Below are positions 40,796 to 47,107 of a stretch of DNA of 64,000 bases, one piece after another. Below the pieces are notes generated by a model that was given only the letters and a program-made list of their open reading frames with translations, was not told where the DNA came from and ran no database searches. The DNA is from Nocardioidaceae bacterium (GTDB lineage: Bacteria; Actinomycetota; Actinomycetes; Propionibacteriales; Nocardioidaceae): positions 30,873 to 94,872 of the forward strand of contig JBIOUF010000014.1 of assembly GCA_044866695.1 (NCBI GenBank), given 5' to 3'. Numbering within the stretch: the first letter of the stretch is position 1; every line of letters begins with the position of its first letter. The position numbers and the translations under genes are program-made.

Positions 40796-40883
40796 TGGTT
40801 GTGGCCGATGGCCGCACGAGTCAGCGGTTGTGGCCCCAGCCCGCAGCGACACGCCGATCGGGGGTGCGGTCTTCGGCCACAAC
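40796..40883. promoter_or_regulatory. GGTTGTGGCC direct repeats plus an inverted copy upstream of amrS (candidate operator or structured leader)
   Basis: GGTTGTGGCC occurs at 40797-40806 and 40826-40835. GGCCACAAC occurs at 40875-40883. A nested CCGCA...TGCGG pair lies between them. Confidence 0.3.
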
Positions 40884-40945
40884 GCCGCCGCCGGCGCCTC
40901 TGGACGCGCGACGGTCCGGCGTACCGTGGAGGCTGGAGCCGACGC

Positions 40946-42052
40946 ATGGACCAGACGCTCACCCTCGACGACCCGTGGACTGTGCCGACGAGGCACTGGC
41001 ACCGCCTCGACGACGGCCGCGTCCAGTGCGACGTCTGCCCTCGTGCCTGCCGCCTGCACGAAGGACAGCGCGGGCTGTGCTTCGTCCGGGCGCGCGCGGC
41101 GGACCAGATCGTGCTCACGTCGTACGGACGCTCCAGCGGCTTCTGCGTAGACCCGGTGGAGAAGAAGCCGCTGAACCACTTCCTGCCCGGGTCGGCGGTG
41201 CTCTCGTTCGGGACGGCGGGCTGCAACCTGGCCTGCAAGTTCTGCCAGAACTGGGACATCTCCAAGTCCCGCGAGACCGACACGCTGGCCGACGCGGCGT
41301 CCCCGGAGACCATCGCCAGGACCGCCGAGCGGCTGGGCTGCCGCAGCGTGGCGTTCACCTACAACGACCCGGTGATCTTCTGGGAGTACGCCGCCGACGT
41401 CGCCGATGCCTGCCACGAGAGGGGCATCGCCGCGGTCGCGGTGACGGCCGGCTACATGTGCCCCGAGCCGCGCGCCGAGCTCTACCGGCACGTCGACGCT
41501 GCCAACGTCGACCTCAAGGCGTTCACCGAGGAGTTCTACCACCGGGTCTGCGCGGCCGGCCTGGGCGCGGTGCTGGACACTCTGCGGTACCTGCGCCAGG
41601 AGACCGGCGTGTGGTTCGAGATCACCACGCTGCTGATCCCCGGACGAAACGACTCCGACGACGAGATCGACGCGGAGACCCGGTGGGTCGCCGAGGAGCT
41701 GGGCCCCGACACGCCTGTGCACTTCACCGCTTTTCATCCGGACTACAAGATGCGAGACGTGCCCCCCACGCCCGGGTCGACGCTGACGAGGGCCCGGCGG
41801 ATCGCCGTGGCCAACGGGCTCCGGTACGTCTACACGGGCAACGTCCACGACACCGAGGGCGGCACGACGTTCTGCGGCGAGTGCGGCAACCCCGTCGTCG
41901 TCAGGGACTGGTACCACATCGAGGCCTACCGGCTCGACGACCGCGGCCACTGCCGCACGTGTGGTCACCGGGTCCCTGGGGTGTACGACGGTCCCGTCGG
42001 TCGGTGGGGCGCACGGCGGCTGCCGGTGGTCCTCGGCGAGCGCGGTCGATGA
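40946..42052 (+). CDS. amrS: AmmeMemoRadiSam system radical SAM enzyme
   Basis: Starts at ATG 40946. It carries VQCDVCPRACRLHEGQRGLCFVR...GCNLACKFCQNWDISK (CxxxCxxC)...C-terminal CGECGNP...CRTCGH. Confidence 0.9.
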   Translation: MDQTLTLDDPWTVPTRHWHRLDDGRVQCDVCPRACRLHEGQRGLCFVRARAADQIVLTSYGRSSGFCVDPVEKKPLNHFLPGSAVLSFGTAGCNLACKFCQNWDISKSRETDTLADAASPETIARTAERLGCRSVAFTYNDPVIFWEYAADVADACHERGIAAVAVTAGYMCPEPRAELYRHVDAANVDLKAFTEEFYHRVCAAGLGAVLDTLRYLRQETGVWFEITTLLIPGRNDSDDEIDAETRWVAEELGPDTPVHFTAFHPDYKMRDVPPTPGSTLTRARRIAVANGLRYVYTGNVHDTEGGTTFCGECGNPVVVRDWYHIEAYRLDDRGHCRTCGHRVPGVYDGPVGRWGARRLPVVLGERGR

Positions 42053-42059
42053 ACCGGCG

Positions 42060-42884
42060 ATGAGCGACGTCCGGACCCCGGCGGTGGCCGGGTCCTTCTA
42101 CGCCGGCGACCCGGCGGAGCTCGCCGCGACGGTCGACGCGCTGCTGGGCCGCGCCGACGGCAGCGAGCCCGCCCGCGGCCCGGTGGCGCTGGTCGTGCCG
42201 CACGCGGGGCTCCGCTGCTCGGGCCCGGTCGCGGCGTCGGCGTACCGGCTGGTCCGCCGGCACTGGCCGGGCCGCGTCCGCGCAGTCGCGGTGTTCGGGC
42301 CGGCACACTTCCGGGACGTGGGCGGCATGGCCGTGCCGGCCGGTCGGGCCTGGTCGACGCCGCTCGGCGAGGTTCCCGTCGACGCGCGGCTGCGCGCCCT
42401 GCTCGTGCGGCGTGGGCTGGCGCGGGCCGACGACGGCTGTCATGCCGGCGAGCACTCGGTCGAGGTGCAGCTACCGTTCCTGCAGCAGGCCCTGGCCGGC
42501 GACTGGTCGCTGCTCCCGGTGGTGGCGCGCTCGGTCCCGGCGGAGCTGGTCGCGGACTGCATGGACGCGCTGGCCGACGACGACGTGGGCGTCGTGGTCA
42601 GCACGGACCTGTCGCACTACCACGACGTGTCCACGGCGCAGGCGCGGGACCGCCGTACCGCGGCGGCAGTCCTGCGACTCGACGTCGACGCGGTCCGCGA
42701 CGAGGACGCCTGCGGAGCAGAGGTGTTGAGGGGCGTCCTGGTGTGGGCGCGCCGTCGCGACCTCCGGGTCGGGTTGCTCGACCTCGGCACGTCCGCGGAC
42801 ACGTGCAGCGGTCCCGAACGGGTGGTGGGGTACGGCGCCTTCGCCCTGGCGAACCGCCCAGCTCTCGGCGAGGACCGAGGCTAG
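42060..42884 (+). CDS. amrB: AmmeMemoRadiSam system protein B (Memo-like)
   Basis: Starts at ATG 42060. It carries PAVAGSFYAGDPAEL...VVPHAGL.CSG...EHSVEVQLPFLQ...STDLSHY. Confidence 0.85.
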   Translation: MSDVRTPAVAGSFYAGDPAELAATVDALLGRADGSEPARGPVALVVPHAGLRCSGPVAASAYRLVRRHWPGRVRAVAVFGPAHFRDVGGMAVPAGRAWSTPLGEVPVDARLRALLVRRGLARADDGCHAGEHSVEVQLPFLQQALAGDWSLLPVVARSVPAELVADCMDALADDDVGVVVSTDLSHYHDVSTAQARDRRTAAAVLRLDVDAVRDEDACGAEVLRGVLVWARRRDLRVGLLDLGTSADTCSGPERVVGYGAFALANRPALGEDRG

Positions 42885-42924: not shown

Positions 42925-43695
42925 GTGCAGGTTTCGGACAAGGTCTGGGTGGTCACCGGCGCGGGAAGCGGGATGGGCCGCGAGCTCGTGCTGCTGATGC
43001 TCCGCCGCGGCGCGCGCGTCGCAGCCGTCGACGTCAGGGCCGAGGCCCTCCAGGAGACCGCATCGCTCGCGGCGGTCGGCGACCGGATGTCTCTCCATGT
43101 CGTCGACATCACCGACCGCGCGGCGGTCGGATCGGTCCCGGAAGCCGTCGTGGACGCGCACGGCCGCGTCGACGGGCTGGTCAACAACGCCGGGATCATC
43201 CAGCCCTTCGTGCCGGTGGCCGACCTCGACTACGCCGTGTTCCGGCGCGTCCTCGACGTCAACCTCATGGGCACGGTCCACATGGTCAAGGCGTTCCTCC
43301 CTCTGCTGCTCGAACGGCCGGAGGCGCACGTCGCCAACGTGTCGAGCATGGGCGGCTTCTTCCCGTTCCCGGGCCAGACGGTGTACGGCGCCAGCAAGGC
43401 GGCCGTCAAGCTGCTCACCGAGGGCCTGTACGCCGAGCTGCTCGACACCCGCGTCCACGTCACGGCGATCATGCCCGGAGCCGTCGCCACCGCCATCTCG
43501 GAGAACTCCGGGGTCGCGGCCCCGGCCGGTGCGGCGCAGAGCGCGGCCGTGCGCGCCACCCCCGCCGACAAGGCGGCCCGGATCATGCTGCACGGCATCG
43601 AGCGGAACCGCCTGCACGTCTATGTCGGCAGGGATGCCCAGCTGATGAGCCTTGCGCGATCCGGGTCGCCCCGGCCCCGGCGATCCGGTTCGTGA
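42925..43695 (+). CDS. SDR-family oxidoreductase
   Basis: VVTGAGSGMGRE...NNAGI...YGASKAAVK. Confidence 0.9.
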   Translation: MQVSDKVWVVTGAGSGMGRELVLLMLRRGARVAAVDVRAEALQETASLAAVGDRMSLHVVDITDRAAVGSVPEAVVDAHGRVDGLVNNAGIIQPFVPVADLDYAVFRRVLDVNLMGTVHMVKAFLPLLLERPEAHVANVSSMGGFFPFPGQTVYGASKAAVKLLTEGLYAELLDTRVHVTAIMPGAVATAISENSGVAAPAGAAQSAAVRATPADKAARIMLHGIERNRLHVYVGRDAQLMSLARSGSPRPRRSGS

Positions 43696-46600
43696 AGAAG
43701 CAGATGACCAAGCGTCTCAGCACCGCCGTACCCGCCCCTTCGCGTTGAGCCGTCAGATCCGGTCGGCGCACCAGGACTGACGGGTCGAGGCACCAACATT
43801 GACGGCTCGGCGCGCCAGCATTGACGGTTCGGCGTGGGTCAGGGGTCGTCGAGGGGGTCGGGTCCGGTGTCGAAGGTGCGCAGCGGGGGGGCGGTCGAGG
43901 TGGTGGCGGGCGGGCCGGTCGCGGCGGGTGCTGTCGAGGTGGGGGTCGTCGAGGTGGGGGTGGTGGCGGGCGGGGGGACGACGGTGGCGTCGGTGGCTCC
44001 TCGCCCTCGATGGACACGTGGGGGAGGATGCGGTCCAGCCAGGCGGGCAGCCACCAGGCGGCACGGCCGAAGAGCACCAGGGCCGCCGGCGCGAGGGTGA
44101 CCACGAGGATGCCCGCGAGCAGCACGGCGACGGACAGCCCGACGCCGAACTGCTTGATGGTCGGGTCGCCCTCCAGGATGAAGCTGGCGAACACCGAGGC
44201 CATGATGAGGGCGGCTGTCGTGGTGATCCGACCGCTCGAGGTCAGCGCGGACCGCACGCTGTCACTGGCCTCCTCGCCGGCATGGTGGTGCTGCTGGACG
44301 TGGCTGACCAGGAACACCTCGTAGTCCATGGACAGCCCGAAGAGGCCTGCGAACATCATCAGTGGCACGTAGCTCGCGATCGGCACCGACGAGTCCGCGG
44401 TGTCGATGCCGAGCAGGGATATGCCCCAGCCCCACTGGAAGGCCGCGGTCAGGACGCCGAACGCCGCGGCCGCGGAGAGCAGGTTCGTCACCGCTGCCTG
44501 GAGCGGGATGAGCAGCGACCGGAAGGCCACCATCAGCAGGAGGAAGCCGAGCAGAATGACAGTGCCGATGACAAGAAGTAGCCGGGCCGAGATCAGCGAG
44601 GCGAGGTCGACGTACGACGCGGTGTACCCGCCGACGTACGACGTGATGCCCCCGCCCTGGTTGGTCTCCGGAAGGACCGTGCCGCGGACGTCCCTGACCA
44701 GGTCGGCCGTCGTGTCGGACGCCGGCGCGGTCGAGGGCACCGCCGACAGCAGGACGACGTCGCCCTTCTTGTTGATCTGGGGCGGCGTGAGCGAGACGAC
44801 CCCGTCGGTCCCGGACAGCCCCTTCTGGAGGTTGACCACGCGAGGGTCGGTGCCGCGGTCGTCACCGCCGGCCTGCGTGAGCATGTCGGTCAGCTCCTTC
44901 TTGAGCTGCTCGGCCTGCTTCTGCTCCTGCTGCGCCTGCTTCTGCTCGGCCTTCAGCTCGTCGGCCTGCTGCTGCAGCGCGTCCCCCTGCGCCTGCAGCG
45001 CGGCCGCCTGCTGCTGCAGCTGCTGAGCCTGGCGCTGCAACGCGTTCGCCTGCCGGCGGAGGCTGGCCGCACGGCTCTGGAGCTGGTCCCCCTCCCGCCT
45101 CAGCCGAGCCGCGGTCTGCTGCAGGGCGGTCTTCTGCCGCTCGAGCGAGCCGGCCTGGCGCTGAAGGGTCGCGGCCTGCTGCCGCAGGTGGTCGGCCTGC
45201 GACTGGAGCTGGCGGGCCTCGCGAGCGAGCCGGCGCGCCTGGGCCTCGAGCGGCCTGAGCTCCTGGCGCACCTCGGCCTCGCGCTGACGGACCTCGGCCA
45301 GCCGCCGCTTCAGCCGGGCCACCTCGTCGGCGTCGCCTCGCGCCTCGGCGCGCTGGATGCGGCGCTGAAGGACCCGTTCGCGCACGAGCAGCCTGCCCAG
45401 CTCGCGGGCCAGCGGGCGGATCTTCGCCGCGAGCGCCCGGGCCTGGCGCTCCAGCGCCTGCTTGCGATGCTCCAGCCGGGACTGCTCGGCCTCCAGCCGG
45501 CGCTGCTCACGCTCGAGTGTGGTCGCGCGCCGTTCGAGCGCGCTCTGCTGGGCGCGGAGCCGGTCGGCCTGCTGCTGCAGTCTCGCCTGCTGCCGCTCCA
45601 GCTGCGCCTGCTGGCTCTCCAACGACCGTTGCTCCGCCTGGAGCTGCTGCTTCTCCCGTTCCAGCTGTCGCTGTTGGGCCCGGAGCTGCTTCTGCTCGGC
45701 CTGGAGCTGCTGCTTCTGCTTCGGGAGCTCCTTCTGCTTCTCGTCGAGGTCCTTCTTCAGCGACTGGGCCTTGTCGTACTTCTTGGTGTACTCCTCGCTG
45801 GGCGCCGCCACCGGGTCGAGCTCGGAGGCGACCTGGAGCGGCCCGTTGTAGCCGACGCCGAACCCGGCCGAGATCAGGTCGTAGGCCTGGCGCTCGGTGG
45901 TGTCGGGCGAGGTGGCGCCGACGTCCTCCTGGCCCAGCTCGAGGGAGAACACCGGCACGATGAGCGGGGCCAGCGCCGCCAGGGAGACACCGGCCACGAC
46001 CAGCGGATGTCGTCGTACGACGCCGGCCCACCGGGCCCAGATTCCGCTGCCAGCCGGCCGCTCGGGACGCATGAACGCCGGCAGCGACAACCAGGCGATC
46101 CGGTGTCCGAGCAGGCCGAGGAACGCGGGCAGGAGCGAGATCGCGACCAGCACCGCCGCGACGACCGCGATCGCGGAGGCCAGGCCGAGGGCGCTCACCA
46201 GGGGGATGCCCGCGACTCCCAGGGACAGCAGGGCGATGACCACGGTGCACCCGGCGAAGACGATGGCGCTTCCCGAGGTCGCCACGGCGTTGGCGATCGA
46301 GTCCACCATGGGCATCCCGGCGCGCAGCTGGTCCTGGTGGCGGGTGATCAGGAACAGCGCGTAGTCGATGCCGACGCCGAGCCCGATCATCGTGGCGAGC
46401 GTCGGTCCGCTGGACGGGATCGCGAACAGGTGCCCGGCGAGGCCGACGATCGCGAGGGCGATGCCGAGGCCGACGACGGCGGTGACGATGGGCATGCTCA
46501 TCGCCACCAGGCTGCCCAGCACCAGGCTCAGGATGACCATCGCCGCGACGATGCCGACGACCTCGCTGGTCTCGGACTGGTCGTCGGACAGCGCCGAGCC

Positions 46601-47107
46601 GATCGACCCCGCGGCGGCGGTCGTGATGCCGGCTCGCTGTGCCGGCTCGGTGGCGTCCAGGACGCGCTGGGCGGTCTCGTCGGTCAGGTCGCCGGAGCCG
46701 ACGTCCAGCAGCACCGGCGCGAACGCGGTCTGCCCGTCCTTCGACAGCAGGCCGGCGGTCTGGCCGTCGCTGCTGACCGGGTTGGTCACGCTGTAGACGT
46801 GCGGCTGCTTCTCGATCGCCTTCACCGAGTCGGTGACGGCCTTCTGGTTCGCCGAGTCGGTCAGCTTGCCCTCGGCGACGTCGAAGACGATCGGGTTCAC
46901 GCCGTTCTGCTGAGGCGGGAACCGTTCGGTGAGCAGGTCCTTGACGCTCTGGCTGCCGGTCCCGGGCAGGGACAGGTCGTTGTTGGTCTGCGCGCCGAAC
47001 ACCGACACCGCGCCGATGACCGACGCCGCCACCACCACCCAGATGGCGACCATGAGCAGGCCGTGGCGCGCGCTGAAGGAGCCGAGCCTGCGCAGCAACC
47101 GAGCCAC
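43583..47107 (-). CDS. MMPL-family (RND-type) transporter with a long coiled-coil insertion and a Pro-rich C-terminal extension
   Basis: I trimmed the track ORF to GTG 47107, which has GGAGAGGGG upstream. There are two 6-TM bundles (GIDYALFLITR..., GLSMDYEVFLVSH...). Between them, an extracytoplasmic domain carries about 300 aa of Q/R/L/A/E heptad-like sequence. The last ~140 aa are Pro-rich and overlap the SDR gene. Confidence 0.85.
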   Translation of the reverse strand: MARLLRRLGSFSARHGLLMVAIWVVVAASVIGAVSVFGAQTNNDLSLPGTGSQSVKDLLTERFPPQQNGVNPIVFDVAEGKLTDSANQKAVTDSVKAIEKQPHVYSVTNPVSSDGQTAGLLSKDGQTAFAPVLLDVGSGDLTDETAQRVLDATEPAQRAGITTAAAGSIGSALSDDQSETSEVVGIVAAMVILSLVLGSLVAMSMPIVTAVVGLGIALAIVGLAGHLFAIPSSGPTLATMIGLGVGIDYALFLITRHQDQLRAGMPMVDSIANAVATSGSAIVFAGCTVVIALLSLGVAGIPLVSALGLASAIAVVAAVLVAISLLPAFLGLLGHRIAWLSLPAFMRPERPAGSGIWARWAGVVRRHPLVVAGVSLAALAPLIVPVFSLELGQEDVGATSPDTTERQAYDLISAGFGVGYNGPLQVASELDPVAAPSEEYTKKYDKAQSLKKDLDEKQKELPKQKQQLQAEQKQLRAQQRQLEREKQQLQAEQRSLESQQAQLERQQARLQQQADRLRAQQSALERRATTLEREQRRLEAEQSRLEHRKQALERQARALAAKIRPLARELGRLLVRERVLQRRIQRAEARGDADEVARLKRRLAEVRQREAEVRQELRPLEAQARRLAREARQLQSQADHLRQQAATLQRQAGSLERQKTALQQTAARLRREGDQLQSRAASLRRQANALQRQAQQLQQQAAALQAQGDALQQQADELKAEQKQAQQEQKQAEQLKKELTDMLTQAGGDDRGTDPRVVNLQKGLSGTDGVVSLTPPQINKKGDVVLLSAVPSTAPASDTTADLVRDVRGTVLPETNQGGGITSYVGGYTASYVDLASLISARLLLVIGTVILLGFLLLMVAFRSLLIPLQAAVTNLLSAAAAFGVLTAAFQWGWGISLLGIDTADSSVPIASYVPLMMFAGLFGLSMDYEVFLVSHVQQHHHAGEEASDSVRSALTSSGRITTTAALIMASVFASFILEGDPTIKQFGVGLSVAVLLAGILVVTLAPAALVLFGRAAWWLPAWLDRILPHVSIEGEEPPTPPSSPRPPPPPPRRPPPRQHPPRPARPPPPRPPPRCAPSTPDPTPSTTPDPRRTVNAGAPSRQCWCLDPSVLVRRPDLTAQREGAGTAVLRRLVICFFTNRIAGAGATRIAQGSSAGHPCRHRRAGGSARCRAA
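43769..43834. repeat. Three copies of the 22-bp repeat seen at 34179-34288, in the opposite orientation
   Basis: The copies read CACCAGGACTGACGGGTCGAGG / CACCAACATTGACGGCTCGGCG / CGCCAGCATTGACGGTTCGGCG. The reverse complement of the consensus matches GGCCGAGCCGTCAATCCTGGTG. Confidence 0.75.

What the first reader, a model, noticed from the sequence alone, without database searches (positions are those of the whole stretch)
44880..45800. MMPL transporter with a ~300-residue Q/R/L/A/E coiled-coil insertion
Between the two 6-TM bundles, the second extracytoplasmic domain is interrupted by about 300 aa of uninterrupted heptad-like sequence: ...KQQLQAEQKQLRAQQRQLEREKQQLQAEQRSLESQQAQLERQQARLQQQADRLRAQQ....

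A possible turn lies near RRIQRAEARGDADEVARLKRRL. If so, the two ~150-aa arms could form an antiparallel hairpin on the order of 20 nm (about 1.5 A per residue). That is long enough to span a thick Gram-positive wall.

As I recall, some mycobacterial MmpL proteins (the MmpL4/5 group) have a much shorter coiled-coil at the equivalent position. The DNA is also internally repetitive (CAGCAG/CTGCAG-rich), making it prone to length variation.
Basis: partly seen in the sequence, partly recalled or inferred. Interest (0 to 1): 0.6.

Follow-up and report, generated by a model that had tools for sequence, protein, structure and literature searches.

The report
MMPL transporter with built-in coiled-coil stalk
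A Nocardioides membrane transporter of the MMPL family carries a predicted rigid two-helix hairpin about 23 nm long on its outer face, a design that resembles the stalk recently found on tuberculosis drug-efflux pumps but seems to have arisen separately, in bacteria that have no outer membrane.

Summary
Window 43583-47107 (minus strand) encodes a 1174-aa MMPL/RND transporter. Residues 437-745 (window 45799-44873) are a strict heptad repeat that is 77% Q/A/R/L/E.

AlphaFold2 predicts two helices, 438/462-589 and 593-745, joined by a three-residue turn (R590-G591-D592). The predicted hairpin is about 22-23 nm long.

Comparative evidence supports the hairpin:
- Among 120 homologues, insertion length moves in steps of 14 residues (262 to 458 aa).
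- The two arms change together, 7 residues each (r = 0.99).
- The arm registers fit an antiparallel a-d' core.

One part of the reading fails: this is not the MmpL4/5 stalk at the equivalent position.
- The Nocardioides hairpin replaces the beta1-alpha1 loop of periplasmic domain 2. The mycobacterial one sits between beta2 and beta3.
- A tree nests this clade among stalk-less MMPLs, far from the mycobacterial clade.
- The genome has no MmpS.
- The hairpin has no Cys pair and a polar surface, so it looks like a two-helix strut rather than a hydrophobic tube.

The same-site design is widespread in soil Actinomycetota, where it is annotated only as "MMPL family transporter". Its function as a wall-spanning stalk is inferred.

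The parts
43583..47107 (-). Whole MMPL gene: 1174 codons plus stop, GTG start at 47107. It stands alone as a single gene.
   Evidence: The ORF and RBS are. Pfam finds MMPL twice. The neighbours are a convergent SDR gene and a divergent alpha-L-rhamnosidase gene.
45944..47107 (-). Residues 1-388: TM1, extracytoplasmic domain PD1, TM2-6, the cytoplasmic loop and TM7. This part includes the TM4 Asp248-Tyr249 pair (46361-46366).
   Evidence: Secondary structure comes from the AF2 model. The region aligns to MmpL3 structures. D248 and Y249 are invariant.
45800..45943 (-). Residues 389-436: first part of PD2, with helix 404-416 and strand beta1 424-430 (GPLQVAS), then the linker ELDPVAAPS.
   Evidence: From the AF2 model. 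Stalk-less relatives align up to about residue 431-438.
45341..45799 (-). Residues 437-589: ascending (N) arm of the hairpin. The heptads have Leu at d and Gln/Lys at a.
   Evidence: AF2 models helices 438-458 and 462-589 in the full-length protein and a single helix 438-589 in the isolated segment. Heptad table.
45332..45340 (-). Residues 590-592 (Arg-Gly-Asp): the hairpin turn.
   Evidence: This is the only non-helical stretch between 462 and 745 in both AF2 models.
44873..45331 (-). Residues 593-745: descending (C) arm of the hairpin. The heptads have Leu at d and Ala/Gly at a.
   Evidence: AF2 models helix 593-745 or 593-748. Heptad table.
45251..45415 (-). Residues 565-619: conserved tip module bounded by two Pro-Leu pairs (P565, P619). 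It is Arg-rich, with net charge +6.
   Evidence: Conservation and charge are. Pro spacing is 52-54 residues in most of the 120 homologues. This is the most confident part of the full-length model (pLDDT 88-91).
44627..44872 (-). Residues 746-827: rest of PD2, with alpha1 750-765, beta2 770-773, beta3 784-791, alpha2 798-815 and beta4 821-826.
   Evidence: From the AF2 model. Stalk-less relatives align again from about residue 745-760.
44027..44626 (-). Residues 828-1027: TM8-TM12. This part includes the TM10 Asp928-Tyr929 pair (44321-44326).
   Evidence: From the AF2 model and the MmpL3 alignment. D928 and Y929 are invariant.
43586..44026 (-). Residues 1028-1174: Pro-rich C-terminal tail, predicted disordered. 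It is unusually long, and its last 113 nt overlap the convergent SDR gene.
   Evidence: pLDDT is below 50. Homologues end 20-60 aa after SIEGE. ORF table.

Best explanation
**What it is.** The gene encodes a proton-driven MMPL (RND superfamily) exporter. Its second extracytoplasmic domain has turned one short loop into a stalk. In stalk-less relatives that loop, between strand beta1 and helix alpha1, is 8-12 residues. Here it is a roughly 310-residue, two-stranded antiparallel coiled-coil hairpin about 22-23 nm long.

**How the hairpin is built.** Each arm has one Leu per heptad, at position d. The ascending arm has Gln/Lys at position a and the descending arm has Ala/Gly. Around the turn at 591/592, each Leu therefore faces the a position of the other arm.

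**What is conserved.** The base and a basic, Arg-rich tip are conserved. The arms keep only their heptad Leu. Arm length changes in matched heptads, roughly 1 nm at a time, giving about 18-33 nm across relatives.

**Inferred mechanism.** In this outer-membrane-less actinobacterium, the transporter core moves an amphiphilic cargo out of the membrane. The hairpin acts as a rigid strut threaded through the peptidoglycan. It holds the conserved tip at a set distance from the membrane, where the tip docks to a wall polymer or a partner protein.

**Origin.** The stalk appears to have arisen independently of the mycobacterial MmpL4/5/10 coiled coil.

**Shown versus inferred.**
- Supported by models and comparison: family membership, extracytoplasmic location, hairpin geometry, arm co-variation, the different insertion site and the separate phylogenetic position.
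- Inferred only: that it spans the wall, that it is a strut rather than a tube, and that the tip docks to something. The cargo is unknown.
For: **Transporter core**
- Pfam finds MMPL twice.
- The best solved relatives by sequence are MmpL3 structures (E 1e-47).
- The Asp-Tyr pairs of TM4 and TM10 are invariant.

**Location**
- With the insertion removed, the protein aligns straight through PD2 of MmpL3.
- Stalk-less relatives align to residues 1-431 and again from about 745-760.

**Hairpin models**
- The full-length AF2 model has helices 462-589 and 593-745, a loop at 590-592, and pLDDT 88-91 at the tip.
- The isolated segment, folded without an alignment, has mean pLDDT 91.3 and the same break.
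- Its Foldseek neighbours are antiparallel hairpins: chemoreceptors, Rad50 and the SMC arm 5nnv (TM 0.62/0.77).
- For the full-length model, the top Foldseek hits are the MmpL5 and MmpL4 structures with resolved coiled coils.

**Comparative test of the hairpin**
- Insertion lengths fall in classes of 262, 276, 290, 304, 318, 332, 430 and 458 aa, and the first tip Pro moves by 7 per step.
- N-arm and C-arm lengths correlate with r = 0.99 and slope 0.98 over 119 homologues.
- In the longest variants, each arm carries its own 14-aa tandem duplications.
- The Leu and a-position coordinates show that pairing residues i + j = 1183 puts N-arm Leu opposite C-arm Ala, and C-arm Leu opposite N-arm Gln/Lys.

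**Independent origin**
- A profile-profile alignment of the insertion-deleted PD2 (probability 97.5%) and a MAFFT alignment both place the mycobacterial insertion 33 residues downstream, between beta2 and beta3.
- That site matches the published statement that the MmpL4 coiled coil sits where AcrB's funnel domain is inserted (PMC11850643).
- In the IQ-TREE tree the clade is sister to a stalk-less MMPL. Branches with support 100/100/100/92 separate it from the mycobacterial coiled-coil clade.
- The insertion-deleted query scores 380-470 bits against stalk-less paralogues but 72-116 bits against mycobacterial coiled-coil MmpLs.

**No adaptor**
- The genome has no MmpS (PF05423) match.
- MmpS occurs in only 4 of 151 sampled Actinomycetia genomes, all of one genus.
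- No neighbouring gene is conserved.
Against: - Everything structural is prediction and comparison. There are no experimental data for this protein.
- The full-length model is mediocre overall (mean pLDDT 63.5, pTM 0.42), although the hairpin part is good.
- Only monomers could be modelled, so a trimer of hairpins is not excluded. RND pumps are often trimers, and the mycobacterial hairpins do assemble into a tube.
- Wall thickness in Nocardioides was not found in the paper library, so "spans the wall" rests on general knowledge of Gram-positive walls.
- Nothing identifies the cargo or what the tip binds. Gene neighbourhoods give no hint.
- One homologue, P0104, lacks about 79 residues of one arm only.
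- Independent gain is more parsimonious, but many losses of an ancestral insertion that later moved cannot be formally excluded.
Confidence: 0.7

Rival explanations
1. The protein trimerises as MmpL5 and MmpL10 do. The three hairpins would pack into a six-helix tube, and the cargo would travel through its lumen across the wall.
For: - Mycobacterial MmpL5 and MmpL10 hairpins form trimeric needles or tubes of 12.5-14 nm that are needed for function (PMC12346298; PMC12501195; PMC12183618).
- The best Foldseek hits of the full-length model are those structures.
- RND transporters are commonly trimers.
Against: - A helical barrel needs two hydrophobic seams per helix. Here each heptad has one Leu, and its a position is Gln/Lys or Ala/Gly. 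All other positions are polar or charged.
- There is one Met in the insertion, whereas the MmpL5 lumen is Met-lined.
- About 33% of residues are hydrophobic even counting Ala. In the MmpL10 coiled coil it is about 50% (128 of 255).
- The MmpS clamp that stabilises the mycobacterial needle is absent.
- AF2 folds the lone segment confidently as a two-helix hairpin.
Confidence: 0.2
2. The insertion is the same ancestral coiled-coil domain as in mycobacterial cluster-I MmpLs. It would have been inherited and then lost in the many stalk-less relatives.
For: - Both are helical hairpins in PD2 of MMPL proteins of Actinomycetota.
- HMMER aligns part of the C-arm to the MmpL5 coiled coil.
Against: - The insertion loops differ: beta1-alpha1 here, beta2-beta3 in mycobacteria.
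- The clades are separated by strongly supported branches and by many stalk-less lineages.
- Insertion-deleted similarity to mycobacterial coiled-coil MmpLs is the lowest of all paralogues tested.
- The C-arm match is compositional. The best PDB match of the segment alone is an archaeal S-layer stalk.
Confidence: 0.05
3. The segment is a low-complexity, disordered linker or a single stable alpha-helix (ER/K type), not a paired coiled coil.
For: The composition is very biased: 77% Q/R/L/A/E, with many charged residues.
Against: - Leu recurs strictly every seventh residue and is conserved.
- There is a single central break, and both ends are anchored in the same small domain. A fully helical insertion must therefore fold back on itself.
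- The arms co-vary 1:1 in heptad units, which neither a linker nor a lone helix would require.
Confidence: 0.03

Closest known systems
Mycobacterial cluster-I MmpL transporters with a coiled-coil or PD3 hairpin (MmpL4, MmpL5, MmpL10)
   Same: - They belong to the MMPL/RND family.
- A long all-helical antiparallel hairpin grows out of the second periplasmic domain and points away from the membrane.
- They are the best Foldseek matches of the full-length model (9mvz_D and 9syt_A).
   Different: - The insertion loop differs: beta2-beta3, the AcrB funnel site, rather than beta1-alpha1.
- They are shorter: 196-255 aa and 12.5-14 nm, against about 310 aa and about 23 nm.
- Their surface is hydrophobic, with a Met-lined lumen and a Cys-Cys tip, and they form a trimeric tube clamped by MmpS. 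Here the surface is polar, there is no Cys and one Met, and no MmpS is in the genome.
- The two clades are distant in the tree.
- The hosts are mycolate diderms, whereas Nocardioides lacks mycolic acids (general knowledge).
MmpL3 (trehalose monomycolate exporter) and the stalk-less MMPLs of Nocardioidaceae
   Same: - They are the closest relatives by sequence. MmpL3 structures match at E 1e-47. Stalk-less family members are 44-49% identical over the C-terminal half.
- They share the 12-TM core, the Asp-Tyr relay and the PD1/PD2 topology.
   Different: At the site of the hairpin they have only an 8-12 residue loop. MmpL3 also has a cytoplasmic C-terminal domain of its own.
AcrB-type RND pumps with a docking (funnel) subdomain, and Clostridia RND pumps with built-in coiled-coil stalks
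   Same: An RND porter subdomain carries an inserted element that extends the pump outward. In the Clostridia notes, the bacteria are also single-membrane and the pumps have no adaptor.
   Different: They belong to another RND family (PF00873). Their insertions lie in the docking subdomain between the two beta-alpha-beta motifs. I did not examine those pumps here.
Long antiparallel two-helix coiled coils: chemoreceptor cytoplasmic hairpins and SMC/Rad50 arms
   Same: They have the same fold as the isolated segment model. They act as rigid spacers and carry a conserved tip or hinge.
   Different: They are cytoplasmic, unrelated in sequence, and most work as dimers or four-helix bundles.

Membership tests
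MMPL family (Pfam PF03176; RND superfamily) | Two homologous halves, each with a large extracytoplasmic loop followed by a TM bundle (12 TM in all) | tested here: met
   Pfam MMPL matches in two stretches, E 9.7e-78. The AF2 secondary structure shows TM1, PD1, TM2-6, TM7, PD2 and TM8-12. The protein aligns to MmpL3 structures.
MMPL family (Pfam PF03176; RND superfamily) | Asp-Tyr pairs in TM4 and TM10 that form the proton relay | tested here: met
   GIDYALF (D248, Y249) and SMDYEVF (D928, Y929) are present. They are invariant in 60 sequences.
Mycobacterial cluster-I MmpL with coiled-coil domain (MmpL4/5/10 type) | Hairpin inserted between the two beta-alpha-beta motifs of PD2, the site of AcrB's funnel domain | tested here: not met
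   Profile-profile and MAFFT alignments place the mycobacterial insertion after beta2 (query residue 778). The Nocardioides insertion comes after beta1 (residue about 436). The published location is in PMC11850643.
Mycobacterial cluster-I MmpL with coiled-coil domain (MmpL4/5/10 type) | MmpS adaptor encoded with the transporter | tested here: not met
   PF05423 has no match in the genome at E <= 0.1. No small partner gene is conserved beside the gene, either here or at three homologous loci.
Mycobacterial cluster-I MmpL with coiled-coil domain (MmpL4/5/10 type) | Hydrophobic, Met-lined barrel heptads and a disulfide-bonded tip | tested here: not met
   Residues 431-750 contain one Met and no Cys. 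Each heptad has one Leu and the other positions are polar.
Mycobacterial cluster-I MmpL with coiled-coil domain (MmpL4/5/10 type) | Groups phylogenetically with the mycobacterial coiled-coil clade | tested here: not met
   In the IQ-TREE tree built on 684 shared columns, the clade is sister to a stalk-less MMPL. Branches with support 100/100/100/92 separate it from the mycobacterial clade.
Mycobacterial cluster-I MmpL with coiled-coil domain (MmpL4/5/10 type) | Three hairpins assemble into a trimeric needle | not testable with these tools
   Only single chains can be modelled here.
Two-stranded antiparallel coiled-coil hairpin | Heptad periodicity with a conserved core position on both arms | tested here: met
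   The period-7 peak has power 115 against a shuffle maximum of 61. Leu holds one position in 33 of 36 heptads. Many of these Leu columns are invariant or at least 90% conserved.
Two-stranded antiparallel coiled-coil hairpin | A single central turn, equal arms, and registers in phase for a-d' packing | tested here: met
   The turn is at 590-592, at the midpoint of 437-745. Pairing i + j = 1183 puts each arm's Leu opposite the a position of the other arm (coordinates).
Two-stranded antiparallel coiled-coil hairpin | The arms change length together in evolution | tested here: met
   There are eight length classes spaced by multiples of 14 aa. Arm lengths correlate with r = 0.99 and slope 0.98, with one exception among 120 homologues.
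Single alpha-helix (ER/K) domain | Mostly Glu/Lys/Arg and no recurring hydrophobic seam | tested here: not met
   Leu makes up 14% of the segment and recurs every seventh residue. Gln and Ala are the commonest residues.

The most novel reading that the evidence does not exclude
Outer-membrane-less Actinomycetota independently evolved their own envelope-spanning stalk on an MMPL transporter. It uses a different loop of the same domain than mycobacteria use. In this reading:
- The stalk is a molecular ruler whose length (about 18-33 nm, adjustable in steps of about 1 nm by matched heptad gain or loss) is tuned to each species' wall thickness.
- Its interchangeable tip (basic in Nocardioides, Cys-bridged or Gly-Pro tipped in other soil lineages) docks to a wall component.
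- The docked tip lets cargo be released at or beyond the outer face of the peptidoglycan.

Together with the mycobacterial tube and the Clostridia RND stalks noted earlier in this scan, built-in coiled-coil stalks would then be a recurrent way for RND pumps to reach across a thick envelope.
Probability: 0.35. Interest if true: 0.75.

Novelty: new variant of a known kind. Interest (0 to 1): 0.64.

Why it matters
**What was known.** Coiled-coil stalks on MMPL transporters were recognised only in 2024-2026, in mycobacterial MmpL4, MmpL5 and MmpL10. There they are essential for siderophore export and for efflux of bedaquiline. How they pass cargo across the envelope is still debated: tube, anchor, or a missing outer-membrane partner.

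**What this protein adds.** It offers a natural comparison:
- It has the same kind of transporter core and a longer stalk.
- The stalk arose at another site.
- The bacteria have no mycomembrane and no MmpS.
- The stalk surface is polar and unlikely to line a lipid-conducting lumen.

If such a stalk is still needed for function, the role of these stalks cannot simply be to reach an outer membrane or to form a hydrophobic pipe.

**Further uses.**
- The strict pairing of heptad gains and losses on the two arms gives a clean, testable rule for how long hairpins evolve.
- It also gives a ready series of natural length variants for asking whether stalk length tracks wall thickness.
- The family is common in soil metagenomes. 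It is annotated only generically, and sometimes mis-named after its coiled coil.

Tried and rejected
1. **Whole-genome search with the full protein.** The genome search with the full-length protein failed twice at order and family level. I used the C-terminal 301 aa instead.
2. **Long open frames in paralogues.** Open frames of 1010-1209 aa around MMPL paralogues of other Nocardioidaceae genera looked like further stalked pumps. The four I could read (L001-L004) have no coiled-coil segment. They are just long open frames in high-GC DNA.
3. **PDB sequence search with the coiled coil alone.** It gave only generic coiled-coil hits. The best was SlaB, the Sulfolobus S-layer stalk, so I read nothing functional into it.
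4. **Conserved partner or cargo-synthesis gene.** Neighbours differ at every locus examined.
5. **MmpS.** It is absent from this genome. It is confined to one genus among 151 sampled Actinomycetia genomes.
6. **Locus search with a tip alignment.** The alignment was not conserved enough to search with. The single-protein pattern search returned only 8 loci.
7. **Literature.** A search for this architecture outside mycobacteria found nothing relevant. Nothing was found on Nocardioides wall thickness.
8. **Disordered linker or single alpha-helix.** Considered and rejected; see the rival explanations.
9. **Extended, domain-swapped helix.** Rejected because both ends of the insertion join adjacent elements of one small domain.
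Full report
**The gene and the observation**

The longest frame over the finding runs from 47470 to 43583 on the minus strand. A GTG at 47107, preceded by GGAGAGG, gives the start that matches all homologues (MARLL...), for a product of 1174 aa. Pfam finds the MMPL family in two stretches (E 9.7e-78). NCBIfam's best models are the MMPL RND subfamily and MmpL3.

The finding's coordinates, 44880-45800, map to residues 436/437-743. That segment is 77% Q/A/R/L/E. Residues 431-750 have no Cys and one Met, and residues 461-745 have no aromatic residue.

The repeat is not a chance effect of composition:
- Hydropathy has a period-7 peak of 115. In 500 shuffles the mean was 14 and the maximum 61.
- The DNA shows 21-nt tandem periodicity.
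- Leu holds one heptad position in 33 of 36 heptads.
- Many of those Leu columns are invariant or at least 90% conserved in a 60-sequence alignment.

**Organism and relatives**

Every named close homologue (64-80% identity) is from Nocardioides. The genome has about a dozen MMPL paralogues, and only this one carries the insertion. Orthologues occur in 6 of the 59 other Nocardioidaceae genera sampled, plus a second genome of the same genus.

**It is a hairpin**

*Structure models.*
- The full-length AlphaFold2 model has mean pLDDT 63.5, and 88-91 at the tip. It gives helices 438-458, 462-589 and 593-745, with one break at R590-G591-D592.
- The segment 431-750, folded alone without an alignment, gives the same two helices and the same break at mean pLDDT 91.3.
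- The Foldseek neighbours of that model are long antiparallel hairpins: chemoreceptors, Rad50 and the SMC arm 5nnv (TM 0.62/0.77).
- Both ends of the insertion join adjacent elements of one small domain. A fully helical insertion with one central break must therefore fold back on itself.

*Comparative evidence, which does not depend on the predictor.*
- I measured the insertion between two conserved anchors (GYNGPLQ and GGDxRxTD) in 120 homologues. Apart from small variations at the tip, the lengths fall into classes of 262, 276, 290, 304, 318, 332, 430 and 458 aa.
- These are steps of 14 or multiples of 14, and the first tip proline shifts by 7 per step.
- Locating the turn by alignment, N-arm and C-arm lengths correlate with r = 0.99 and slope 0.98 over 119 sequences.
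- In the longest variants each arm carries its own 14-residue tandem duplications, yet the arms still match.
- One metagenomic sequence, P0104, lacks about 79 residues of one arm only. It is the sole large exception.

*The core.* Taking Leu as position d, the ascending arm has Gln/Lys at a and the descending arm has Ala/Gly at a. With residues paired so that i + j = 1183, centred between G591 and D592, every N-arm Leu faces a C-arm a position and vice versa. That is the a-d' layering of antiparallel coiled coils.

*Length.* At 0.148 nm per residue the hairpin is about 22-23 nm. Across the family it ranges from about 18 to 33 nm.

**Where it is inserted**

PD1 and PD2 share the order helix, beta1, alpha1, beta2, beta3, alpha2, beta4 in the model. 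In PD2 the hairpin sits between beta1 (424-430) and alpha1 (750-765).
- With the insertion removed, the sequence aligns straight through PD2 of MmpL3.
- Stalk-less relatives align to residues 1-431 and again from about 745-760. In place of the hairpin they have an 8-12 residue loop.
- PD2 lies between TM7 and TM8 and is periplasmic in all solved MmpL structures. The insertion is therefore extracytoplasmic.

**Comparison with the mycobacterial stalk**

*What is published.*
- MmpL4, MmpL5 and MmpL10 carry a 196-255 aa coiled coil in PD2.
- It forms a 12.5-14 nm trimeric needle or tube, which is Met-lined in the MmpL5 model. In MmpL5 the tip is disulfide-bonded and the needle is clamped by MmpS5.
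- It is essential for function (PMC12501195; PMC12183618; PMC11850643; PMC12346298).

*Comparison set.* I fetched 14 of the MMPL genes of an MmpS-bearing genome from the same class. Nine of them have the coiled coil.

*Insertion site.* MAFFT places their insertion after query residue 778, between beta2 and beta3. A profile-profile alignment of the insertion-deleted PD2 regions agrees (probability 97.5%):
- The Nocardioides junction aligns to ...ESD|HDL..., between beta1 and alpha1 of the mycobacterial proteins.
- The mycobacterial junction aligns to ...PPQIN|KKGD..., between beta2 and beta3 of the query.

This matches the published statement that the MmpL4 coiled coil sits where AcrB's funnel domain is inserted, that is, between the two beta-alpha-beta motifs.

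*Phylogeny.* A maximum-likelihood tree on 684 shared columns makes the Nocardioides stalked clade sister to a stalk-less MMPL of another Nocardioidaceae genus. Branches with support 100/100/100/92 separate it from the mycobacterial coiled-coil clade. The insertion-deleted query scores 380-470 bits against stalk-less paralogues and only 72-116 bits against the mycobacterial stalked ones.

*Adaptor.* The genome has no MmpS. No neighbouring gene is conserved.

*Conclusion.* The protein is an MMPL. It resembles MmpL4/5 in design but is not a member of that group. The stalk most likely arose independently.

**Strut or tube?**

A six-helix barrel needs two hydrophobic seams per helix. Here there is one Leu per heptad, and all other positions are polar or small. 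About a third of residues are hydrophobic even counting Ala, and there is a single Met.

I therefore favour a two-helix strut over a lipid-conducting tube. Only single chains could be modelled, so I give the tube 0.2.

**What is conserved, and the inferred mechanism**

- The base is well conserved. On the way up it reads PSxEYTKKYDKAxSLKKDL. On the way down it reads LKAEQKQAQQEQKQAE..LTxM.T.AGGD.
- The tip is also well conserved. It is 52-54 residues between two Pro-Leu pairs and is Arg-rich. Net charge is +6 here and +6.8 on average over the 53 homologues in which a tip motif was found.
- The arms keep little beyond the heptad Leu.

This is the pattern expected of a spacer that presents a functional tip at a set distance.

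My best reading is as follows. A proton-driven exporter (the Asp-Tyr relay is intact) has a hairpin threaded through the peptidoglycan of a bacterium without an outer membrane. The hairpin places a basic tip where it can dock to an anionic wall polymer or a partner. The cargo is unknown. These last steps are inference.

**How widespread it is**

- A pattern search found the same-site insertion on a short contig of a MAG labelled Gaiellales. It has the same base motifs but a different tip.
- Searching with that sequence found 420 proteins at E <= 1e-10. They fall into several subfamilies of about 1000-1146 aa, mostly from metagenomes.
- Many of their insertion lengths again differ by 14 (221, 235, 249, 263, 277, 291). 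Some tips carry a Cys pair.
- Among representatives clustered at 50% identity, about ten full-length clusters and a dozen fragments carry the stalk. They stand against thousands of stalk-less relatives at similar identity.
- Sources call these proteins "MMPL family transporter" or a YdfJ-type membrane protein. Some partial products are named after their coiled coil ("CwlO-like", "chromosome segregation ATPase").
- I found no paper describing this architecture outside mycobacteria.
- Earlier notes of this scan describe coiled-coil stalks built into AcrB-type pumps of Clostridia. I did not check them. If they hold, such stalks recur in RND pumps of single-membrane bacteria.

**Verdict**

The equivalence with MmpL4/5 is not. 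This is a new variant of a recently recognised kind, and it is useful as a natural contrast for the debated role of MmpL stalks.

Noticed in passing
window 43586-44026 (-): The MMPL frame continues about 135-145 codons beyond the usual end (...HVSIEGEE) as a Pro-rich tail that is predicted disordered. Its last 113 nt overlap the 3' end of the convergent SDR gene (42925-43695 +). Homologues end 20-60 residues after SIEGE.
   Followed up: partly
P0104 (ENA metagenome protein, 929 aa): This is the only one of 120 homologues with grossly unmatched arms. About 79 residues of the ascending arm are missing while the descending arm is complete. It could be a real deletion or a repeat-collapse assembly error.
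   Followed up: no
L030 (MAG labelled Gaiellales, 2.1-kb contig) and proteins P0122-P0228: Other soil Actinomycetota carry the hairpin at the same beta1-alpha1 site, with the same base motifs but different tips. Tips include ANTPGIS, AAAGNPVAE and a Cys pair (AADGCAAHPNRLRCRAL). Some partial products are mis-named after the coiled coil (CwlO-like hydrolase, chromosome segregation ATPase).
   Followed up: partly
window 44858-45817 (-), residues 431-750: The best PDB sequence match of the coiled coil alone is SlaB (8qox_B, E 7e-5). SlaB is the trimeric coiled-coil stalk that anchors the Sulfolobus S-layer. The match is probably compositional.
   Followed up: partly
window 40799-42884 (+): A radical SAM gene and a Memo-like gene overlap each other just upstream of the SDR gene. 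They look like an AmmeMemoRadiSam pair with no AMMECR1 gene next to them among the ORFs I scanned.
   Followed up: no
class-level sample of 151 Actinomycetia genomes: MmpS (PF05423) was found in only 4 genomes, all of one genus. The MmpS-clamped stalk therefore seems confined to a narrow lineage, while stalked MMPLs without MmpS are spread more widely.
   Followed up: partly
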